DNA of 64,000 nucleotides from an uncultured archaeon. Its GTDB lineage: Archaea > Altiarchaeota > Altiarchaeia > JAFGQM01. The notes beneath the pieces are model-generated. The model had not been told where the DNA came from and ran no database searches. It saw only the letters and a list, made by a program, of their open reading frames with translations. Location of the stretch: assembly GCA_964592405.1 (NCBI GenBank), contig CAZQBY010000001.1:50459-114458 (forward strand), read 5' to 3'. The position numbers and the translations under genes are program-made. This document shows positions 1 to 63,827 of the stretch, one piece after another. The stretch's first letter is position 1; every line of letters begins with the position of its first letter.

Positions 1-370
1 TAGATGCGACGATAATCTTGTCTCCCCCATTTACCGCCCCAGCATCATCCTGCTGGTTTGGCGGTATTAATGAGTCTCCACATGCCAGCTCAGCAATCAG
101 CCTGTGGACAAAAAAATCGCCCTCTCCCCTGCAGCCGACACCCAAATCATGCATGGTGGCGCCTGCAGTGGATGGCTTTAGAATAACTCTCAGCAACGGG
201 TCTTTGGCATGCCTGCGCGATAACATGACTTCGTCGAGGATAGCCCTGCCCATAGCCCCGGCATCCACTCCCTTCTTCCACGTAAGTATCTCCTCCTTCA
301 ACCTTTGTAATATCTCCTCCTGCCGAAGATTCCTCTCGAGAAGACGATTTACAAGCCCTTCCAGATCCAC
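1..370 (-). CDS. AIR synthase-related (PurM/HypE/SelD superfamily) protein, N-terminal part; runs off window start
   Basis: Not in ORF track. Manual translation from GTG at 370: MDLEGLVNRLL...GVGCRGEGDFFVHRLIAEL...QQDDAGAV, matching archaeal AIR-synthase-related proteins. Confidence 0.7.
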   Translation of the reverse strand, partial: MDLEGLVNRLLERNLRQEEILQRLKEEILTWKKGVDAGAMGRAILDEVMLSRRHAKDPLLRVILKPSTAGATMHDLGVGCRGEGDFFVHRLIAELACGDSLIPPNQQDDAGAVNGGDKIIVAS

Positions 371-20520: not shown

Positions 20521-21915
20521 TTACGCCACCTCATAGATTTGCGAATCCCCAGAGGAGAAGACAACCGTTCCAATCTCAGAAAATTTGTCTGTATCAAAGC
20601 CGTAATTCCAGACATCCCGCGCATCTACAACGACATAATCCACACCATATCTCCCCAATATGTTGCGCGCCTCTTCCGGATCGCTGGTTTTCAGCACATG
20701 ATACATTCTCTCCCATCTGGTGCTATCAGGTATGCATTCCAGAAACAAATCAAACTCCGTTCTTATTGAGGGAGACATTAGCAGTGTATTTATCGCTCCA
20801 GAGATCTCAGGATTTGCAAGCACTGTGCTGTCTCTAATATGATCCCTTATCCAGTAGATAACAGCCAAGTCATCATTCGAGAGGGCAGGCCTGACCATTG
20901 CCACGGCCAAGAAAGACATAACCAGCATCACCACCAACACAATTATAACATACCTCCTCTCAAGCCTTGCTTCAGGCAGTACAAAGCAGAGGCTAAAGCC
21001 AAAGAGCAGCAGTTGGTCATATGGATGCAGTTGTGGGAATATCAGAGAGAGCAGAAACCCCACAACAGCTAATCCCAATACCACCCTCCAAAACAACATA
21101 TAATCATCATTTCTTTTTCTGAGCCAATAAAGCAGGCCAAAGCCTATCAGAGTAACAAATGGGGCCATGATGAGGAGATAGCCCATGCCTGCGCTGGTCA
21201 CAGATGAGACTGCAGTTGACGGATCAAAACACTTACCTGCCCGACTGAATGATACCAACAACCAAGGGGATACCAGTCCGACACCAATGGTTATGATGAG
21301 TGCCGCATAGAGGAGGGAAAGCCTCCTGCCTCTTCCCAGCTTTATAAGGCTGAAGACTGTAATCACAGCCACTATTGTGAGGCTTATGAAATAGTTGAAG
21401 AGTATGCAAGTAGCCAGTATGCCGCCTCCCAGAATGTATCTGCCTCTGAGGAGACAATAGGCTATCAGTGGGAAGAGCAACAGGCCAAATATCTGCGGGC
21501 TGTCATAGGACTGCGCTGTTATTATCGGATTTAGGGCTGTGAAAGCAGCGCCCAGAACTGCAGCCTCTACGCTGCGGTATTTCCTTATCAGAAAGAAGAT
21601 AGGCAGGATAAGAAGTGCACTCGCCAGAGGCAGTATGTATTTTACCAGTTCAATAGCCGGGATTCCTGATATTATACTCGTATAACCCAACAACAGATGA
21701 TATAACGGCGGATACAGATGAGGTCTCCCTCCTGCTGCATAATCCCAAGATGGGACCCAGCCGGTTTCCGCCACAATCTGTCCTATGCGCGCGTGATATA
21801 TCGAATCAAAATTGACCAGAAAATCGTTGGTCAGTGGGGGGTATATCCGGATGCTCAGACTCAATAAAAACAGGCCTATGATAACATATCTAACCTTCAT
21901 TGAGAACCACCTCAT
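20521..21915 (-). CDS. Multi-pass GT-C-fold (STT3/PMT-like) membrane glycosyltransferase
   Basis: NFDSIYHARI, GRPHLYPPLYH, >10 TMs, soluble C-domain YGVDYVVV; located in GT cluster. Confidence 0.7.
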   Translation of the reverse strand: MRWFSMKVRYVIIGLFLLSLSIRIYPPLTNDFLVNFDSIYHARIGQIVAETGWVPSWDYAAGGRPHLYPPLYHLLLGYTSIISGIPAIELVKYILPLASALLILPIFFLIRKYRSVEAAVLGAAFTALNPIITAQSYDSPQIFGLLLFPLIAYCLLRGRYILGGGILATCILFNYFISLTIVAVITVFSLIKLGRGRRLSLLYAALIITIGVGLVSPWLLVSFSRAGKCFDPSTAVSSVTSAGMGYLLIMAPFVTLIGFGLLYWLRKRNDDYMLFWRVVLGLAVVGFLLSLIFPQLHPYDQLLLFGFSLCFVLPEARLERRYVIIVLVVMLVMSFLAVAMVRPALSNDDLAVIYWIRDHIRDSTVLANPEISGAINTLLMSPSIRTEFDLFLECIPDSTRWERMYHVLKTSDPEEARNILGRYGVDYVVVDARDVWNYGFDTDKFSEIGTVVFSSGDSQIYEVA

Positions 21916-55074: not shown

Positions 55075-55539
55075 ATGAAATGTCCGCTCTGTGGATTCTC
55101 GGAAACAAGGGTTGTGGATAAACGTGACTCGGCCGAACTTGATGTCACTCGCCGGAGGAGGGAATGTCTGAAATGCCACAGAAGGTTCACTACCTATGAG
55201 CGCCCAGACATATCCCAGATAATAGTGAGGAAGAAGGATGGGCGTACAGAACCATTTGATAGGGCAAAGGTCCTGCGTGGTATAGTGCGGGCCTGTGAAA
55301 AGCGTCCAATCTCTGTCTCAGTCATGGAAAAGCTGGCGGATGATATCGAATCAGAACTCAGGAAAGACCCTTCTAGAGAGGTCTACAGCAGGAAGATAGG
55401 CCGGCTCGTCATGAAGCGCCTCAAGAAGCTGGATAAGGTTGCATATCTCAGATTTGCATCTGTTTACAGGGAGTTTGAGGGTATTGATGACTTCGAAAGA
55501 GAAGTCAGCAGACTTGTTAGACAACAAATAAGGACCTAG
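55075..55539 (+). CDS. nrdR: Transcriptional repressor NrdR
   Basis: MKCPLC, RRRRECLKC..RFTTYE, ATP-cone, VAYLRFASVY. Confidence 0.97.
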   Translation: MKCPLCGFSETRVVDKRDSAELDVTRRRRECLKCHRRFTTYERPDISQIIVRKKDGRTEPFDRAKVLRGIVRACEKRPISVSVMEKLADDIESELRKDPSREVYSRKIGRLVMKRLKKLDKVAYLRFASVYREFEGIDDFEREVSRLVRQQIRT

Positions 55540-55541
55540 AA

Positions 55542-57626
55542 ATGATGCAGACGAGTGTCAAGAAAATAAGAAAGAGGGATGGAAGGATAGTAAAGTTTGA
55601 CCAAGAGAAGATAACTAATGCCATATTCAAGGCAGCTCAGGCGGTTGGTGGTAGCGACAGAAAACTGGCCGAAAAGCTTTCTGACAAGGTGGTGGCCCTG
55701 TTGGAGGAGGAATATGATGGCCATACCATACCCACGGTAGAGGAAGTGCAGGATTTCGTTGAAAAGGTGCTGATAGAATCAGGACACTCCAAGACTGCCA
55801 AGGCATATATACTCTATCGGCAGAAACGGGCCGATATAAGGAAAGCCAAGTCCCTCCTTGGCGTGGAGGATGATATAAAGCTCACATTAAATGCAATAAA
55901 GGTCTTGGAGAAGCGATATCTCAAGAAGGATTTTGAGGGAAATGTCATAGAAACTCCCAAGGAAATGTTCCGGAGGGTCGCCAAGAACATCGCTCAGGCA
56001 GATTTGAAGTATGGAGCATCGGAATCAACTGTGCGAAAGACTGAAAAGGCGTTCTATACGATGATGACACGTCTGGAGTTTCTGCCAAACTCCCCGACCC
56101 TGATGAATGCCGGCAGGGATCTGCAACAGTTATCTGCATGCTTTGTCCTTCCGATCGAGGACGATATGGAGAGTATATTTGAGGCCCTAAAATACACCGC
56201 GCTTATACATAAGAGCGGTGGTGGCACTGGGTTTTCATTCTCCCGTCTCCGACAGGCCGGTGCCAGGGTAAGATCAACCAGCGGTGTTGCCTCCGGACCC
56301 ATATCATTCATGAAGGTCTTCAATGTTGCCACAGAGGTAATAAAACAGGGCGGGACACGAAGGGGTGCCAACATGGCTATCCTACGGGTTGATCATCCAG
56401 ACATATTGGATTTCATTGTGGCCAAGGAGAGGGAAAACTCCCTGAATAACTTCAATATCTCTGTCGGTATAACAGAAAAGTTTATGCAGGCAGTAGAAAA
56501 CGATGGGGATTATGAGCTTATTGATCCGCGAACAAAAAAACCGGTCAATACCCTAAGCGCCCGCAGGGTGTTTGATCTGATTATTACAATGGCTTGGAAG
56601 AATGGCGAGCCCGGGATAGTTTTCCTTGACCGCCTTAATAAGGACAACCCAACACCAAGTTTGGGTGAGATAGAGAGTACCAATCCCTGTGGAGAGCAGC
56701 CGCTTCTTCCATACGAGTCGTGTAATCTTGGTTCCATCAACCTCTCAAAAATGATTTCCTATCATGGGGGCGAGGCAAAGATAGATTATCCAAAGCTTAG
56801 GAAAACTGTAAGAACTGCTGTCCATTTCTTGGATAATGTTATAGATATGAACAACTATCCCCTCTCCGAAATAGCTGAAATGACACATGCGAACCGAAAG
56901 ATCGGACTGGGGGTAATGGGGTTCGCTGACATGTTAATAATGCTCAATGTGCCTTATAATTCGGAGGAAGCCATCAGGATAGGCGAGGAAGTGATGAAGT
57001 TTATTCATGATGAGGGTGTTCTGATGTCGCAGGAACTGGCTAGGGAGAGGGGACCATTCCCCAACTTCAAGGAGAGTATCTTCAGAAATGAGGAACCGAG
57101 GAGGAACGCAACCATAACCACCATAGCGCCTACAGGCACAATAAGTATAATAGCTGGATGTTCCAGCGGTATTGAGCCAATATTTGCCATATCCTATGTC
57201 AGAAAAAACATCCTTGATCAGGGTGATGAACTGATAGAAGTAAACCCCCTCTTTGAGAGGATTGCTTATGAAAAGGGTTTTTACAGTGAGGATTTAATGC
57301 GTGAGATAGCCACTAAAGGCAGCATCCAGAACATGCATAGGATACCTGAGGATATCCGCCGCATTTTCGTTACTGCACACGATATAACGCCGGAGGACCA
57401 CATCAGAATGCAGGCCGCCTTCCAGAAGTACACAGACAATGCAGTTAGCAAGACAGTCAATTTCCCAAGTTACGCTACGACCCAAGACGTTGAAAAGGTC
57501 TATCTATTGGCATACAAACTTGGATGCAAGGGAGTGACCATTTACCGGGACCAGAGCAGAAAGAAGCAGGTTCTTAATATAGTCAGCGAAAAAAGACAAG
57601 AAGTTTGTCCAAAGTGCGGAGAATAA
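55542..57626 (+). CDS. nrdJ: Adenosylcobalamin-dependent (class II) ribonucleotide reductase with N-terminal ATP-cone
   Basis: PNSPTLMNAG, LSACFV, TNPCGEQPL, CNLGS, IAPTGT, GCKGVTIYR; adjacent cobO. Confidence 0.94.
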   Translation: MMQTSVKKIRKRDGRIVKFDQEKITNAIFKAAQAVGGSDRKLAEKLSDKVVALLEEEYDGHTIPTVEEVQDFVEKVLIESGHSKTAKAYILYRQKRADIRKAKSLLGVEDDIKLTLNAIKVLEKRYLKKDFEGNVIETPKEMFRRVAKNIAQADLKYGASESTVRKTEKAFYTMMTRLEFLPNSPTLMNAGRDLQQLSACFVLPIEDDMESIFEALKYTALIHKSGGGTGFSFSRLRQAGARVRSTSGVASGPISFMKVFNVATEVIKQGGTRRGANMAILRVDHPDILDFIVAKERENSLNNFNISVGITEKFMQAVENDGDYELIDPRTKKPVNTLSARRVFDLIITMAWKNGEPGIVFLDRLNKDNPTPSLGEIESTNPCGEQPLLPYESCNLGSINLSKMISYHGGEAKIDYPKLRKTVRTAVHFLDNVIDMNNYPLSEIAEMTHANRKIGLGVMGFADMLIMLNVPYNSEEAIRIGEEVMKFIHDEGVLMSQELARERGPFPNFKESIFRNEEPRRNATITTIAPTGTISIIAGCSSGIEPIFAISYVRKNILDQGDELIEVNPLFERIAYEKGFYSEDLMREIATKGSIQNMHRIPEDIRRIFVTAHDITPEDHIRMQAAFQKYTDNAVSKTVNFPSYATTQDVEKVYLLAYKLGCKGVTIYRDQSRKKQVLNIVSEKRQEVCPKCGE

Positions 57627-58244: not shown

Positions 58245-59162
58245 ATGGAAGTCAAGGGGGTTCCAGTGGAAGACACCTACTGCGAGGCATTTGATGGTCT
58301 CCTCGCGCGCATACTTGTCACAGCCAAGACAGAGAAACTTCTGCTGAGGGCCGTGAATTCTGCTACAGCCCTGCCATCTACGGTCTTCAATGAGGCTGAG
58401 GGCGGAATAGAAAAGCTCCTGAAGCCCTCTGAGACGCCTGATGGACGTCTAGGAGCCATAATACAGCTATGGGTAAATCACACCAAGAAAGCCCATGAGA
58501 CGCTGGAGCACGAGCTCGCAAAGCGCATCCGACAGGGGATACTTGTGGTCCCTACAACACGTATATTCAATGCCCTGAGCTCAAAAAACAAAGACCCCAA
58601 GCTGCAGGCTGAAGATTATATCGACACCATGGCCAAGGTGGGGCACTGTGGTGATGGCTACGAGAGGGTCATAAGGGCATTTGGGCGCGAGATGATAAGC
58701 ATTCCACTCATGATGGGTGATTTCCTCATTGAAAGAATGCTGGGTGTGAGAAGTGGAGTAATGGGCGGGAATGTGTGGTTCTTCTGTGAGAGCGAAAGCG
58801 CTGCCTTGGAAGCGGGCGACAGGGCGGTGGATGCACTAAGGGATGTAGGCGGAGTCATAACGCCCTTCGATATCTGCTCTGCAGGTTCAAAAGTGGAGAC
58901 AAACTTCCCGGAGATCGGGCCGACCACCAACCACCCATTCTGCCCGACATGCAGATCGGAAATACCGGATTCAAAGGTTCCGGATGGAATAAAATCAATA
59001 CCGGAGATAGTTATAGATGGTCTGGATCTGGAATCGGTGAAAGAGGGAATGAAAGTTGCAATCTATGCAGGGGCTGAGGTTGATGGTGTTGCGCGAATAT
59101 CCGCAGGCAACTATGGCGGGAAGCTTGGAAGATATCACATCCGACTGAGGGAACTAATCTGA
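58245..59162 (+). CDS. ftr: Formylmethanofuran:tetrahydromethanopterin formyltransferase
   Basis: VEDTYCEAF, ETPDGR.G, RIRQ..L..PT, GDGYE, GVMGGN, GSKV, EIVIDG, ISAGNYGGKLG. Confidence 0.92.
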   Translation: MEVKGVPVEDTYCEAFDGLLARILVTAKTEKLLLRAVNSATALPSTVFNEAEGGIEKLLKPSETPDGRLGAIIQLWVNHTKKAHETLEHELAKRIRQGILVVPTTRIFNALSSKNKDPKLQAEDYIDTMAKVGHCGDGYERVIRAFGREMISIPLMMGDFLIERMLGVRSGVMGGNVWFFCESESAALEAGDRAVDALRDVGGVITPFDICSAGSKVETNFPEIGPTTNHPFCPTCRSEIPDSKVPDGIKSIPEIVIDGLDLESVKEGMKVAIYAGAEVDGVARISAGNYGGKLGRYHIRLRELI

Positions 59163-59190: not shown

Positions 59191-60171
59191 ATGATATTTG
59201 TATTTGATCTGGAAGGACCCCTAAGCCCGATGGACCATGCAGCTGAAGCCATGCGTATCATAGGCAACAAACTGGGGCGGCCGGATTTCTTTCAGTTCTT
59301 CCAGATGTTAAGCCTCTACGATGACGAGCTTACTCTAGAAGGCAAACCCGGATACAACCCCGGGGATACCCTGAGGCTAATAGCACCAATAGTCTCCACA
59401 CAACTGAGTGATGAAGAACTGACTGAGATATCAGAGGAAGCAGAACTCACCCCTGGTGCCAAGGATCTTATGACAATCTTGGACCCGGACAATGTCTATG
59501 TCGCCTCTACGTCCTACCAGCAACATGCCCTTACAATATCAAAAAGGCTGGGCATACCCCCGGAAAATGTCAACTGCACTCACTTACCAAAATACAGGGA
59601 TTTTCCCTACATGAACAGGCTTCTGGAATTATTTGAGAAATACAAAACAGGTGGTATGCAATCTGTCAAGCAGGATCTGGATGCTCTCTTCTGGGGTGAG
59701 ATGGAATACGATTATCTAAGGACAAAGGTGTGTGGAGGACAAAGAAAGTTGGACGTCGTCGAGAGAATATCCAAGGAGCGAAATGTTGCCGTGAGCAATT
59801 TCATAGTAGTGGGCGACTCCATAACTGACATAAACATGCTGGAGGGTGTCAGGAAGGCCGGAGGTGTAGCGATTTCATTTAATGGTAATCAGTACAGTGT
59901 GCCAAGGGCAAACCTGGCTGTCAGCTCGATAAGTCTTATGGCATTGTGGCCGATAGTCGATGCATATCCAGACGTATGGGATTTTGTGAGGAGGTGGAAC
60001 TACAGCCAAGACAAGCTGAAGCTTCTAAGGACCGAAATTCGGACATACTTTGAGGAACACGGGCTGAAACCCAAGTATGATGAGGTCCGACAGTCAAATA
60101 TAGAAGAGATAGTCACTAGACAGAAGGAAATGCGAATTGCCATAAGAAAGGAATATGGTGAGCTCACCTGA
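59191..60171 (+). CDS. HAD-superfamily hydrolase, EhaR-like (COG4030)
   Basis: FDLEGPLS, LSLYDD, YNPGDTLRLIAP, STSY, VGDSITD, SFNGN.Y. Confidence 0.85.
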   Translation: MIFVFDLEGPLSPMDHAAEAMRIIGNKLGRPDFFQFFQMLSLYDDELTLEGKPGYNPGDTLRLIAPIVSTQLSDEELTEISEEAELTPGAKDLMTILDPDNVYVASTSYQQHALTISKRLGIPPENVNCTHLPKYRDFPYMNRLLELFEKYKTGGMQSVKQDLDALFWGEMEYDYLRTKVCGGQRKLDVVERISKERNVAVSNFIVVGDSITDINMLEGVRKAGGVAISFNGNQYSVPRANLAVSSISLMALWPIVDAYPDVWDFVRRWNYSQDKLKLLRTEIRTYFEEHGLKPKYDEVRQSNIEEIVTRQKEMRIAIRKEYGELT

Positions 60172-61237: not shown

Positions 61238-62569
61238 CTAACCAGTCCTACTTCTTCTCCTGGTCACCAAGAGCAAGATTAACAAAAACAACACTATGCC
61301 AACAACAATTACCATATTTGTGTCCAACCCCACCACAGGTCCGGGTTCTGCCCTGCCGTAGGTGACTGTAAAAATCTCTCCAATTTCAGACATTGCAGAC
61401 CTGCTACTGGTGATGTTTCCCCCACTTACAGATTTTATTTCCATACCAGCTGGCACGTTAACGATTACATCAAAATCCAATGTCATCTCCTCCGGGAATG
61501 ATAACTGATACTCCCCACCGCTTTTTTTGCCCAGATCGATTATTCTCCCGCTGAGGGACTGCATAGCCATTCCGTCTTTGCCCCTGACAAGCGTGTAATC
61601 CAAGTTCTCGATGGTATAATCTCCCGGCATATAACTCCTCACTACACAAGTCATCAGAGTTTGTACATCCTTTACGATGACAGATCCTTGCAGTGTCATG
61701 GTCATCCCTGTTTTAGACAGCTCCGCATCCATGGATTCTAAAGATGGCCAGCTTGCGGTTTTGTCGTCCAGCAACACCGTATTCACACTGCCTGATATCC
61801 GATCACCAGAGCCCGACACGCTCATAGTGCTCCTGCTGCTGGACCCCAGCGTAGCGGAGACCAGCTCCTCGACGCTCAGGCCAAGGCATGTGAGGAAATC
61901 CCGGTCTTCATTATCTTGCTGATAGCTCATAGCTATCACAGAGGCTATAAAATCGCTCCATCCCTCTATGGTCATCTTTAGAGTGATGGAGAGGGTATCA
62001 CTCCCAGTTATACCTAGTTCATCTATGCTGATTCTGGGTCTCATATCAAGCGGCATTTGGGAGAACAGTTCATTCAGTTGTGCCTCAAACTCACTTTCCG
62101 CTACTGCCGGATCTGCCTGAATCGAGTCGACGTCTATCAGTAATAGGTCCTGCACTACACTCCTCTGAATCAAAGCTGATGCATCCAGTTTCAGCGCACC
62201 TGATGATTCCTCCACTGTGATGTCTAGGTTGAAATCTCCCAGGATCTCTAGGAGGCGGGCTATTTCAGCACCACTGGCCTCAAATGTCAGGTCAGCGACA
62301 TCCCCTTTGACATTGATATCGGCTTTGTAATCCGGGTTCAGGGCCAATGCCGTATCGGTAATGGTTCCGCTGAAGCTCACTACATTGCTTTTGGCATTGG
62401 CCGAGACCATAACATTAAGCTCCTGTGCCTCCCAGTCCAGGGCCTCCCGGAATATCATCCTCGCATTCCCAGTCGCATCCATCTCAAACACTGCTTCATT
62501 GATGCCTTGGGCTGATGCCATTGCAAGCAGCGCTGTGGAAAAGAGAAGAGCATGCAGTCTCAGGTCCAT
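61238..62569 (-). CDS. Secreted, C-terminally anchored acidic surface protein
   Basis: Signal peptide from ATG 62569 (MDLRLHALL..ASA), C-terminal TM plus RRRSR. Confidence 0.75.
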   Translation of the reverse strand: MDLRLHALLFSTALLAMASAQGINEAVFEMDATGNARMIFREALDWEAQELNVMVSANAKSNVVSFSGTITDTALALNPDYKADINVKGDVADLTFEASGAEIARLLEILGDFNLDITVEESSGALKLDASALIQRSVVQDLLLIDVDSIQADPAVAESEFEAQLNELFSQMPLDMRPRISIDELGITGSDTLSITLKMTIEGWSDFIASVIAMSYQQDNEDRDFLTCLGLSVEELVSATLGSSSRSTMSVSGSGDRISGSVNTVLLDDKTASWPSLESMDAELSKTGMTMTLQGSVIVKDVQTLMTCVVRSYMPGDYTIENLDYTLVRGKDGMAMQSLSGRIIDLGKKSGGEYQLSFPEEMTLDFDVIVNVPAGMEIKSVSGGNITSSRSAMSEIGEIFTVTYGRAEPGPVVGLDTNMVIVVGIVLFLLILLLVTRRRSRTG

Positions 62570-62618
62570 CTTCACTCCTGTCCCCCTTATTATTGAAGTT
62601 CCAATAAAAATAAGATAT

Positions 62619-63701
62619 TCAGGTCCCTTCAATTACTTTCTCATAGGCTAGGGTGGTCTCCACGATTTTTCTGCTCTTGGATGTAAAGATGCAGAGAATC
62701 TTCTTCCTTTGCACAAGTAGGTCAAGAAGTTCCTTTAGACCCCTTGGTACCCTGCAGTATTCTCTATACGCATCTATCTCGTGTTTTCTGTATTGTGATA
62801 CCCAGATGAGTGAGGACTGCAGGACTATGGCAACATCATCTATTGTAGGCTGTCTGTTTTCCCTCATCAATATCTGCAATAATCCGGCAGCAATGAACAG
62901 GGAGAACTGTTCCGGAGGAAAGATGCCGGCCAGCTCCCGGACTGTTATCCTATCCGGCAGGGTCTTTGTGTTAACAGGGATTCCGGCCCTCTTCGAGAGA
63001 TCATTCACACAACTGCACATGTCTTTATCAACTTCTGAATAAAGGACGGAAACCAGATCTCTTTCCTTCAGATCAAACAGGCGCAACAGAAAGAAGGAAG
63101 CGATCCTGGCCTCAGAGGAGTTCATACCTGGAAGACTGCCCAGTCTCTGCCACCCATTCTCAATTCTTATCCCGAATATTGCATCCTTCAGCTTTTTGTC
63201 CACCTTCTTTTCTTCCATTAGCTTGTCCACCTCCCATGTTGGCCAGTTTTTGTCAGTGAGCCTGTAGGCTTCTTCCCTGCCACCAATAATCAGGGTATCC
63301 CCAAGATCAAAACAGACAGCCTTTACCTTCTCAGCAAAATCAGGAAACTGCTTAAACCACCACCAGAGTTCGTTGTAGTTAAATACAACTATAAACTTGG
63401 GCAGCATGGACTTGTTTCTTTTCACAAATGCTCCTCCGAATTCTACATCCTCCTTCATGCTTTTGATAGTTGAGATATCCCTAACGAGCCCCTGAGCTAT
63501 CATGGCAAAGAATACCTTTGCCCTCTTGGCAGCAAGAAAATCATCGTGGCCATCCCCCACATAGAGCATCTCCCAGTTCTTTAGGTCCAGCCGGTTCTTT
63601 AGTTTCTCCAGACCCTTTGAGGACGGTTTCAGTTCCAGCAGATCCTCTCTAGTTATTATGTTCTCATTTCTGAAGTATCTGGATAGGAGTATCTTTCTCA
63701 T
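62619..63701 (-). CDS. Circularly permuted HAD-superfamily hydrolase (phosphoglycolate phosphatase-like)
   Basis: Motif III K25-P and motif IV GDGHDD (49-54) precede motif I FDLGDT (131-136); motif II TSKS (340-343) at C-terminus. Confidence 0.8.
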   Translation of the reverse strand: MRKILLSRYFRNENIITREDLLELKPSSKGLEKLKNRLDLKNWEMLYVGDGHDDFLAAKRAKVFFAMIAQGLVRDISTIKSMKEDVEFGGAFVKRNKSMLPKFIVVFNYNELWWWFKQFPDFAEKVKAVCFDLGDTLIIGGREEAYRLTDKNWPTWEVDKLMEEKKVDKKLKDAIFGIRIENGWQRLGSLPGMNSSEARIASFFLLRLFDLKERDLVSVLYSEVDKDMCSCVNDLSKRAGIPVNTKTLPDRITVRELAGIFPPEQFSLFIAAGLLQILMRENRQPTIDDVAIVLQSSLIWVSQYRKHEIDAYREYCRVPRGLKELLDLLVQRKKILCIFTSKSRKIVETTLAYEKVIEGT

Positions 63702-63827
63702 ATTCGGTTATCTTCTATCATTTGTTTTTTATGACGGAAGCTAAAACATAGAGGGTTAAAAGGAATCATACTTATTATAAATATGTTATGTAATTATGAT
63801 TGGCGGGTAAAAAACAATCGCACCAAA

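What the first reader, a model, noticed from the sequence alone, without database searches (positions are those of the whole stretch)
62619..63702. Circularly permuted HAD hydrolase flanked by a 10-bp direct repeat
Canonical HAD order is I (DxD/GxT), cap, II (T/S), III (K), IV (GDxxxD). Here the protein begins with the usual second half (SRYF..IITRED..LKPS..GL; LYVGDGHDDFLAAKRA; PKFIVVFNYNEL, the usual C-terminus). A short linker leads to the usual N-terminus (KVKAVCFDLGDTL), a ~200-aa cap, and finally motif II (GLKELLDLL..LCIFTSKSRKIVETTL). All motifs are retained, so it may be active. TATGAGAAAG (minus strand) occurs at both the start codon (63693-63702) and the 3' end (62636-62645), exactly at the permutation point. 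This could be a scar of a circular intermediate or duplication-deletion. The copies are 1057 bp apart, so simple rejoining would be 1 nt out of frame.
Basis: partly seen in the sequence, partly recalled or inferred. Interest (0 to 1): 0.75.

Follow-up and report, generated by a model that had tools for sequence, protein, structure and literature searches.

The report
Naturally circularly permuted HAD hydrolase
This archaeal gene encodes an enzyme of the very common HAD phosphatase fold whose two halves are encoded in swapped order; the swap is real, old and conserved in one small archaeal family, but the short DNA repeat at the gene's ends is a coincidence.

Summary
The 360-aa ORF (62619-63701, minus) is a real circular permutant of a C1-capped HAD-IA hydrolase. 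Pfam matches it in swapped order. BLASTP against a canonical HAD gives two swapped segments. Of 149 nearest representatives among 1.84 billion proteins, 109 match both parts of the family profile, and all 109 do so in swapped order.

Nineteen full-length homologues of 53-76% identity exist. They occur in the window's genome and 5 of 7 other genomes of one archaeal family, and in none of 53 other genomes of the phylum. Synonymous sites are saturated while pN is 0.20-0.29. AlphaFold2 gives one confident fold: pLDDT 91.5, pTM 0.83.

The 10-bp repeat exists. It is out of frame, absent from 5 of 5 homologous loci and within chance, so it is not a scar.

"All motifs retained" is only partly right. 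Motif I is an invariant DLGDT, with Gly where phosphatases have the second Asp; this is seen in 0 of 147 canonical relatives.

The substrate is unknown. I found no described natural HAD permutant in four literature searches. This is a new variant of a known kind, of moderate interest.

The parts
62619..63701 (-). Whole gene: 360-aa circularly permuted HAD-IA-type hydrolase (P0001), stop codon included
   Evidence: ORF list and translation. Pfam HAD_2 scores 47.6 bits against a cut-off of 23.8. 19 full-length homologues exist.
63384..63701 (-). Residues 1-106: the usual C-terminal half of a HAD core (strand 3, motif III, strand 4, motif IV, strand 5 and a small hairpin), now at the N-terminus
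   Evidence: HAD_2 profile 118-177/178 matches residues 6-67, E 9.9e-9 when the 118-aa N-terminal piece is scanned alone. VIA aligns model 3..121 with residues 123..224 of 3qu2_A: Z 7.0, rmsd 2.4, 100 aligned. 23 of the 50 rows shown are of this kind.
63627..63629 (-). Motif III lysine, K25 (KPS)
   Evidence: Invariant in 20 of 20 sequences. Aligns with the KP of canonical HADs.
63540..63557 (-). Motif IV, G49-D50-G-H-D53-D54
   Evidence: G49, D50, D53 and D54 are invariant. They align with GDSxxD of solved HADs.
63321..63383 (-). Residues 107-127: the old C-terminal helix (invariant W114, W115) and a short new linker that joins the old C-terminus to the old N-terminus
   Evidence: Helices 109-118 and 120-125 lead straight into strand 128-131 in the model. 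W114 and W115 are invariant.
63294..63320 (-). Residues 128-136, strand 1 and motif I: AVCFDLGDT, with nucleophile D132, G134 in place of the usual second Asp, D135 and T136
   Evidence: Invariant V129-T136. CFDLGDT is present in 20 of 20 members, and 0 of 147 canonical representatives have DxGDT. Aligns with the N-terminus of a canonical HAD: query 125-179 to subject 6-59.
62739..63293 (-). Residues 137-321: enlarged all-helical cap inserted after motif I (C1 position), with many invariant residues
   Evidence: The model shows only helices from 142 to 314. Invariant residues include R142, E144, Y146, D150, W153, W156, W184, N194, R199, Y221, Q265, W300, Y304, R305 and K306. 85-92 residues superpose on caps of canonical HAD clusters at TM 0.32-0.34.
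62622..62738 (-). Residues 322-360: helix, strand 2 with motif II (T340-S341-K342, at 62676-62684) and the helix after it, now the C-terminus
   Evidence: HAD_2 profile 65-114 matches residues 300-352. S341 and K342 are invariant and T340 is in at least 90% of sequences. The model has strand 335-339 and helix 344-352.
63693..63702 (-). Copy 1 of TATGAGAAAG, over the start codon (a coincidental repeat, not part of the mechanism)
62636..62645 (-). Copy 2 of TATGAGAAAG, over codons Y353-E354-K355 in another frame than copy 1 (a coincidental repeat)

Best explanation
The gene encodes a functional, naturally circularly permuted member of the HAD superfamily, of subfamily IA type with the cap inserted right after motif I.

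Compared with an ordinary HAD, the chain starts just before core strand 3. It runs through motif III (K25), strand 4 with motif IV (D50, D53, D54) and strand 5. It crosses a short new linker (about residues 119-127) into strand 1 with the nucleophile (D132). It then makes a 185-200 aa helical cap and ends after strand 2 with motif II (T340, S341, K342) and one helix. The two parts fold into one Rossmannoid core with the active site assembled from both (inferred from the model, not seen in coordinates).

The rearrangement arose once, before the divergence of one family of Altiarchaeota-like archaea. The most likely route is fusion of two tandem HAD genes, or a tandem duplication, followed by loss of the outer halves (inferred). 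The two chain ends still overlap by about 12 residues of the same ancestral segment. The 10-bp DNA repeat in this genome is a coincidence of purine-rich codons.

Mechanistically it most likely works as a Mg2+-dependent phosphoryl-transfer enzyme through an aspartyl-phosphate on D132, with the large conserved cap selecting a specific small substrate (inferred, about 60%). The usual general acid/base Asp at +2 is a Gly, so either D135 takes over or the chemistry differs from a plain phosphatase.
For: Swapped order:
- Pfam HAD_2 positions 118-177 match residues 6-67, positions 65-114 match residues 300-352, and PF00702 positions 1-130 match residues 126-350.
- BLASTP against a canonical 253-aa HAD (L007) gives query 125-179 to subject 6-59 and query 6-60 to subject 152-205.
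- With the family profile, 109 of 149 nearest representatives match both profile parts, and 109 of 109 are in swapped order. None is collinear; 40 match one part only (per-stretch E up to 1).

One fold:
- AlphaFold2 gives pLDDT 91.5 and pTM 0.83, with no stretch under 50.
- VIA aligns model 1-125 with the C-terminal halves of HAD-IA structures in 23 of the 50 rows shown, best Z 7.0.
- Rossmann-like chains align across model 22..356, skipping the cap.
- The Atlas's own model aligns residues 3-131/144 and, separately, 119/125-355 with HAD clusters.

Real and selected:
- 19 homologues of 53-76% identity and 98-100% coverage, 354-367 aa long.
- All four motifs are invariant or nearly so.
- Full-length intact copies are in G000 and in 5 of 7 other genomes of family f1.
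- pN is 0.20-0.29 against pS 0.79-0.92.

Overlapping ends:
- In 98 canonical HADs aligned to both profile ends, the permuted termini hold 9-17 (median 12) residues more than the canonical junction.
- The head consensus is MxEKILLS and the tail consensus AYEKEI.

Repeat a coincidence.
Against: - I could not read model coordinates, so strand pairing between the N-terminal part and strands 128-131 and 335-339 is inferred from pTM and from aligned ranges, not seen.
- Foldseek against the PDB gave no match at E <= 0.001 for the whole model, only HAD fragments of 60-81 columns. That is expected for a permutant but is no positive support.
- The C-terminal part alone matches Pfam only weakly: E 0.03-0.04.
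- Motif I lacks the Asp at +2 that 116 of 147 canonical relatives have, so activity as a phosphatase is not assured.
- The cap does not align with the large cap of the sister family's HAD: hhalign probability 2%.
- The ancestor is unresolved. The head resembles PGP-like and TIGR01548-like HADs, while motif I resembles a CTE7-like HAD.
- No expression or biochemical data exist.
Confidence: 0.88

Rival explanations
1. Chimeric origin. The protein is a permutant in topology only. It was made by fusing the 3' half of one HAD gene with the 5' half, including the cap, of a different neighbouring HAD paralogue, not by duplication of a single gene.
For: - The N-terminal part is closest to PGP-like and TIGR01548-like HADs: hhalign probability 98%, E 1.7e-13, against the tail of the sister family's 335-aa HAD; 38% identity over 96 aa.
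- Motif I (AVCFDLGDTLI) is identical over 12 residues to a CTE7-like HAD, L007.
- DxGDT is absent from 147 of 147 representatives that were picked up mostly through the N-terminal part.
Against: - L007 was found by a pattern search for that very peptide, so the likeness is ascertained, not independent.
- Outside motif I the match is weak.
- The head and tail of the protein overlap on the same canonical segment, which fits either origin.
- No tandem intermediate was found among 1.84 billion representatives.
Confidence: 0.3
2. The 10-bp direct repeat is a scar or substrate of the rearrangement (a circular intermediate, or duplication-deletion at the repeat), or marks a recent recombination or assembly join.
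For: The repeat is exact and sits within 10 nt of the start and 26 nt of the stop. Only 2 of 64 ORFs in the window show an end-to-end word this long.
Against: - The permuted order is shared by 5 other genomes with saturated synonymous divergence.
- None of them has an end-to-end word longer than 6 nt.
- The copies are in different frames, 1057 = 3 x 352 + 1 nt apart.
- 6 of 100 shuffles hold the word twice.
- Both copies are purine-rich Glu/Arg/Lys codons.
Confidence: 0.02
3. Artefact or pseudogene: two HAD gene fragments joined by misassembly or decay, not a working protein.
For: None beyond the unusual order.
Against: - The same 354-367 aa architecture occurs in 19 other protein clusters from several sources and in 5 other species-level genomes without internal stops.
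- The catalytic residues are invariant.
- pN is much lower than pS.
- The single-fold model is confident.
Confidence: 0.01
4. The two parts do not complete one core within a chain but complement each other between chains (a domain-swapped dimer), or the N-terminal part is a degenerate appendage.
For: Not excluded by any search. Only a monomer was modelled, and I could not inspect contacts.
Against: - The monomer model has pTM 0.83 with pLDDT above 85 on both sides of the linker.
- The linker is short and conserved, with invariant W114 and W115.
- Motifs III and IV are invariant, which argues against a degenerate appendage.
Confidence: 0.06

Closest known systems
HAD superfamily, subfamily IA (Pfam HAD_2 PF13419 / Hydrolase PF00702): phosphoglycolate phosphatase and PpaX-like enzymes, e.g. 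Bacteroides thetaiotaomicron pyrophosphatase BT2127 (PDB 3qu2/3qyp) and Aquifex PGP (2yy6)
   Same: Same fold elements and catalytic motifs: nucleophile Asp, Thr/Ser of motif II, Lys of motif III, acidic motif IV. The cap is inserted directly after motif I. Best structural matches have Z 6.4-7.0 over 92-100 residues. HAD_2 scores above Pfam's cut-off.
   Different: - The chain order is III-IV-linker-I-cap-II instead of I-cap-II-III-IV.
- The cap is about 185-200 aa against roughly 60-90 (the latter figure is recalled).
- Motif I is DLGDT instead of DxDxT.
- All NCBIfam equivalog scores are far below their cut-offs, e.g. PpaX 38.8 against 218.
TIGR01548-like 335-aa large-cap HAD of the sister archaeal family (alignment A2; e.g. 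L014:820-1827, next to hisD)
   Same: Found in the same phylum and of similar length, with a cap of about 190 aa. Its C-terminal 100 residues align with the N-terminal 100 of the permuted protein: 38% identity, E 9e-13; hhalign probability 98%. The distribution is complementary: A2 is in 19 of 22 f7 genomes and 0 of 8 f1 genomes, while the permuted form is only in f1.
   Different: It has canonical order and a canonical WDxDGVL motif I. The caps do not align: hhalign probability 2%. The neighbour is different: hisD against purC. Orthology is not shown.
CTE7 / REG-2-like HAD-IA (TIGR02253, TIGR02252), e.g. the Bathyarchaeia protein L007:4986-5747
   Same: Shares the unusual motif I, AVCFDLGDTLI, with Gly at +2 and Asp at +3. 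This shows that this active-site variant also exists in canonical-order HADs.
   Different: It is 253 aa, in canonical order, with a small cap. It was found by a pattern search for that peptide, so kinship beyond motif I is weak.
Other natural circular permutants of enzyme folds, e.g. GH70 glucansucrases versus GH13
   Same: Same principle: the catalytic motifs are kept while the chain starts at another element of the fold (passages of PMC11046441).
   Different: A different fold. For the HAD fold I found no such case described.

Membership tests
HAD superfamily (Pfam clan HAD; PF13419/PF00702) | Significant match to the family profile above the curated cut-off | tested here: met
   HAD_2 scores 47.6 bits (cut-off 23.8) and Hydrolase 33.7 bits (cut-off 26.4), each in two stretches.
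HAD superfamily | Motif I nucleophile Asp at the end of strand 1 | tested here: met
   D132 is invariant in 20 of 20 sequences and directly follows strand 128-131.
HAD superfamily | Motif II Ser/Thr at the end of strand 2; motif III Lys; motif IV acidic pair (motif definitions recalled from Burroughs et al. 2006, which is not held) | tested here: met
   T340 (at least 90%) and S341 (invariant) follow strand 335-339. K25 is invariant. D50, D53 and D54 are invariant and follow strand 45-49.
HAD superfamily | Canonical sequential order of the motifs, I-II-III-IV, with sheet order 32145 (order from a passage of PMC6957218) | tested here: not met
   The order is III-IV-I-II. This is the finding itself. 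The spatial sheet order could not be read because no coordinates were available.
HAD phosphatases (as opposed to ATPases, phosphonatases and dehalogenases) | Second Asp at nucleophile +2 acting as general acid/base (DxDxT; its role is recalled) | tested here: not met
   G134 is at +2 and D135 at +3 in 20 of 20 members. 116 of 147 canonical relatives have Asp at +2 and 0 have DxGDT.
HAD subfamily I (C1 cap) | Helical cap inserted between motif I and motif II, directly after the motif I loop | tested here: met
   Only helices from 142 to 314, lying between D132 and T340. 85-92 cap residues superpose on caps of HAD clusters, but only at TM 0.32-0.34.
NCBIfam equivalogs: PpaX (NF009804), phosphoglycolate phosphatase (TIGR01449, NF009695), TIGR01548 | Whole-protein score above the curated cut-off | tested here: not met
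   Scores against cut-offs: 38.8 against 218, 25.8 against 180, 31.2 against 225, 14.7 against 140.2.
Circular permutant (as opposed to domain shuffling) | The two segments together cover one copy of the domain, are contiguous across the old termini, and the new termini map to adjacent positions of the canonical domain | tested here: met
   HAD_2 position 114 ends the C-terminal match and position 118 begins the N-terminal match. In 98 canonical HADs the two matches abut, with the permuted ends overlapping by a median of 12 residues.

The most novel reading that the evidence does not exclude
This is the first natural circular permutant of the HAD fold. It was built by fusing halves of two different HAD paralogues. 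Together with the loss of the general-acid Asp (DLGDT) and a 200-aa conserved cap, the rearrangement gave an enzyme with a chemistry or substrate not found among canonical HAD phosphatases. That could be a phosphotransferase or mutase with a long-lived aspartyl-phosphate, which in this archaeal family takes the place of the canonical large-cap HAD that the sister family keeps beside hisD.
Probability: 0.15. Interest if true: 0.7.

Novelty: new variant of a known kind. Interest (0 to 1): 0.5.

Why it matters
HAD enzymes are among the largest and best-studied enzyme superfamilies. Their classification rests on the fixed order of four motifs and on where caps are inserted.

A conserved natural permutant shows that the Rossmannoid HAD core tolerates new termini between strand 2 and strand 3, and a covalent link between the old termini. 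That is useful for protein engineering and for understanding folding of this fold.

It also matters for annotation. Sequential tools see only a fragment here: Pfam covers about 60 residues well, and Foldseek found nothing at E <= 0.001. Such proteins will therefore be systematically under-annotated or taken for truncated genes.

The overlap of the two chain ends gives a small piece of evidence for the duplication-and-trimming route of permutation. The practical importance is limited: the family is small, confined to uncultured archaea, and its substrate is unknown.

Tried and rejected
- Foldseek of the whole model against the PDB gave no match at E <= 0.001, only HAD fragments of 60-81 columns at ranks 9, 34, 40 and 45. 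I read this as a limit of sequential alignment, not as a new fold.
- hhalign of the C-terminal part and of the cap against the sister family's large-cap HAD found no credible match: probability 1.5-2%. A weak likeness of cap residues 228-282 to a HAD C-terminal half (E 0.024) was rejected as noise, because the model is all-helical there.
- The Atlas search by features on the cap alone gave scores of 0.86-0.89, below the level that means anything.
- Gene context did not give a substrate. purC is a divergent neighbour in 5 of 5 related loci and in the window, but all loci are from one archaeal family. The other neighbours are unrelated housekeeping genes: NrdR, ribonucleotide reductase, corrinoid adenosyltransferase, FTR, M24 peptidase.
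- The promoter and terminator scan showed nothing above its shuffles, and it is of bacterial type anyway.
- Earlier notes of this scan held nothing near this place, nothing by sequence, and only permutants of other folds by words.
- Literature. Four searches returned 9, 6, 8 and 34 papers. I read passages in six of them. None describes a permuted HAD. The key review, Burroughs et al. 2006, is not held, so I cannot exclude that it or a subscription paper mentions one.
- P0168 (245 aa, the HAD half at residues 65-125) looked like a possible second permutant.
- One Pfam call failed on wrong coordinates of my own. It was repeated with the valid protein only.
- Complex prediction was not used. I make no binding claim, so the domain-swapped-dimer rival stays untested.

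Full report
**What is there**

The finding's coordinates hold one open reading frame, 62619..63701 on the minus strand, 360 codons. An in-frame TAA lies nine bases upstream of the ATG, so no longer N-terminus is possible. The gene is transcribed divergently from a purC-like gene that runs off the window end. It is followed by a 464-codon ORF for a protein with a signal-peptide-like start and a C-terminal hydrophobic anchor, without a Pfam match.

**The permutation is real**

- Pfam matches residues 6-67 to positions 118-177 of the 178-position HAD_2 profile, which carry motifs III and IV.
- When the rest of the protein is scanned alone, residues 300-352 match HAD_2 positions 65-114. Residues 126-350 match positions 1-130 of PF00702, weakly (E 0.03-0.04).
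- The profile therefore breaks between positions 114 and 118, and the two pieces stand in swapped order.
- BLASTP against an ordinary 253-aa HAD (L007, a Bathyarchaeia MAG) gives the signature of a permutation: query 125-179 aligns with subject 6-59, and query 6-60 with subject 152-205.
- A profile of the family (A1) was run against 1.84 billion representative proteins. It found 325 hits at E <= 0.001. Only one is a full-length relative (P0018) and two are fragments; the rest are ordinary HADs.
- I re-scored the 149 listed representatives locally, with per-stretch E up to 1. Of these, 109 match both the head and the tail part of the profile, and all 109 do so in swapped order. None is collinear, and 40 match one part only.

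**It is one fold, as far as I can tell**

- AlphaFold2 on the 20-sequence alignment gives mean pLDDT 91.5 and pTM 0.83, with no disordered stretch.
- The secondary structure reads: strand 45-49 (ending in motif IV), helix, strand 64-68, a small hairpin region, helices 109-125, strand 128-131 (ending in D132), helices only from 142 to 331, strand 335-339 (ending in T340-S341), and helix 344-352.
- An aligner that compared the model with 48,161 solved chains put HAD-IA enzymes on top. In 23 of the 50 rows shown, model residues 1-125 align with the C-terminal half of a HAD; the best is 3qu2_A with Z 7.0, rmsd 2.4 and 100 residues.
- Other Rossmann-like chains align across model 22..356 while skipping the cap. 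That is what one expects if the N-terminal strands and strands 128-131 and 335-339 form one sheet.
- The Atlas's independent model aligns residues 3-131/144 and, separately, residues 119/125-355 with HAD clusters.
- Foldseek on the whole model found nothing at E <= 0.001, which I attribute to the swapped order.
- I could not read coordinates, so strand pairing is inferred. A domain-swapped dimer is not excluded.

**It is conserved and under selection**

- Nineteen other proteins, 354-367 aa long, share 53-76% identity over 98-100% of the length. One is labelled as from an Altiarchaeota MAG.
- In the alignment, K25, G49, D50, D53, D54, the whole V129-T136 stretch, S341 and K342 are invariant, together with many cap residues and W114-W115 in the linker helix.
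- Among 61 genomes of the phylum, full-length intact copies occur in the window's genome and in 5 of 7 other genomes of its family. The two without a copy are 81% and 64% complete.
- They occur in none of the 53 genomes of other families. Of those 53, 17 match only the profile's head, through ordinary HADs.
- Against the five other loci, pN is 0.20-0.29 while pS is 0.79-0.92, that is, saturated. L009-L013 proved to be the same loci as L001-L005.
- An assembly artefact or pseudogene is therefore excluded.

**The 10-bp repeat**

TATGAGAAAG occurs exactly twice in the window, at 63693-63702 and 62636-62645, 1057 bases apart. It cannot be a scar of the permutation, for four reasons:

- The event predates lineages whose synonymous sites are saturated.
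- In 5 of 5 homologous loci the longest word shared by the two gene ends is 5-6 nt.
- One copy reads ATG-AGA-AAG and the other TAT-GAG-AAA-G, so they are in different frames.
- Chance is sufficient. Six of 100 shuffles hold the word twice, and 2 of 64 mechanical ORFs of the window have an end-to-end word of 10 nt or more.

**A more interesting trace of origin is at the protein level**

In 98 ordinary HADs that align with both ends of the family profile, the two matches abut or even overlap. The permuted protein's two termini together hold 9-17 (median 12) more residues than the uninterrupted junction. The family's head (MxEKILLS...) and tail (...AYEKEI) also share an EK-hydrophobic word. This fits the classical route of tandem copies fused in frame and then trimmed from both sides with a little overlap left. 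A plain terminal extension is not excluded, and the word is too short for statistics.

**Ancestor**

The ancestor is unresolved.

- The head is closest to PGP-like HADs and to a 335-aa large-cap, TIGR01548-like HAD of the sister archaeal family. The figures are 38% identity over 96 aa, hhalign probability 98% and TIGR01548 at 106 bits, below its cut-off.
- That canonical protein is present in 19 of 22 genomes of family f7 and in 0 of 8 of family f1, the reverse of the permuted form.
- However, its cap does not align, its motif I is canonical, and it sits beside hisD rather than purC.
- Motif I of the permuted family is identical to that of a CTE7-like HAD. That protein was found by searching for this very peptide.
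- A chimeric origin from two paralogues is therefore a live alternative; I put it at about 0.3.

**How it probably works**

- All residues that bind phosphate and Mg2+ in HADs are invariant. The motif roles are recalled from the HAD literature; the key review is not held.
- I therefore expect phosphoryl transfer through an aspartyl-phosphate on D132, under a large, highly conserved helical cap that should select one particular small substrate.
- One defining feature of HAD phosphatases is missing. The Asp two residues after the nucleophile is Gly in 20 of 20 members, with Asp at +3. Of 147 canonical relatives, 116 have Asp at +2 and none has DxGDT.
- Either D135 substitutes, or the enzyme is not a simple phosphatase.
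- Gene context gives no substrate. The purC neighbourhood is conserved but only within one family of archaea.

**Comparison and novelty**

The protein passes Pfam's HAD_2 and Hydrolase cut-offs and fails every NCBIfam equivalog cut-off. It is a HAD in residues and fold elements, but not in the order that defines the family's motif numbering.

Four full-text searches and passages of six papers gave no description of a natural HAD permutant. Subscription literature, including Burroughs et al. 2006, could not be checked.

I rate it a new variant of a known kind. It is clearly real and neat for fold evolution and annotation, but it is a small family of unknown substrate in uncultured archaea. Interest 0.5.

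Noticed in passing
window 59191-60171 (+): A 326-aa protein two genes from the permuted HAD has only sub-threshold HAD matches at its C-terminal part: PF00702 E 8e-4, PF12710, PF08282. It has a 65%-identical partial homologue in the same relative position in L002. It may be another divergent HAD.
   Followed up: partly
window 61238-62632 (-): A 464-aa ORF directly downstream has a signal-peptide-like start, a C-terminal hydrophobic anchor and no Pfam family. Homologues of 22-37% identity follow the permuted HAD in L001, L002 and L004. It is probably a fast-evolving surface protein.
   Followed up: partly
window about 20521-21915 (-): Another mechanical ORF, also 464 aa long, has a 12-nt word (TCTATGAGGTGG) shared between its start and stop zones. 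I used it only as a chance control and did not examine it further.
   Followed up: no
L014:820-1827 (+) and L014:1831-3105 (-); also L015-L019: The sister archaeal family carries a canonical-order 335-aa HAD with a cap of about 190 aa. It is TIGR01548-like at 106 bits, below the cut-off, and is present in 19 of 22 genomes. In L014 it lies tail to tail with histidinol dehydrogenase. It is a candidate histidinol-phosphate phosphatase.
   Followed up: partly
L006:5007-5252 (+): In a Treponema MAG, an 81-aa ORF right after carB begins with MKIKAVCFDLGDTLIY and then ends. It looks like a truncated HAD N-terminus with the same DLGDT motif I.
   Followed up: no
window 55075-57626 (+): An NrdR-like repressor (Zn ribbon plus ATP-cone) lies directly upstream of a ribonucleotide reductase with its own ATP-cone, in an archaeal genome that also encodes formylmethanofuran:H4MPT formyltransferase at 58245-59162.
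   Followed up: no
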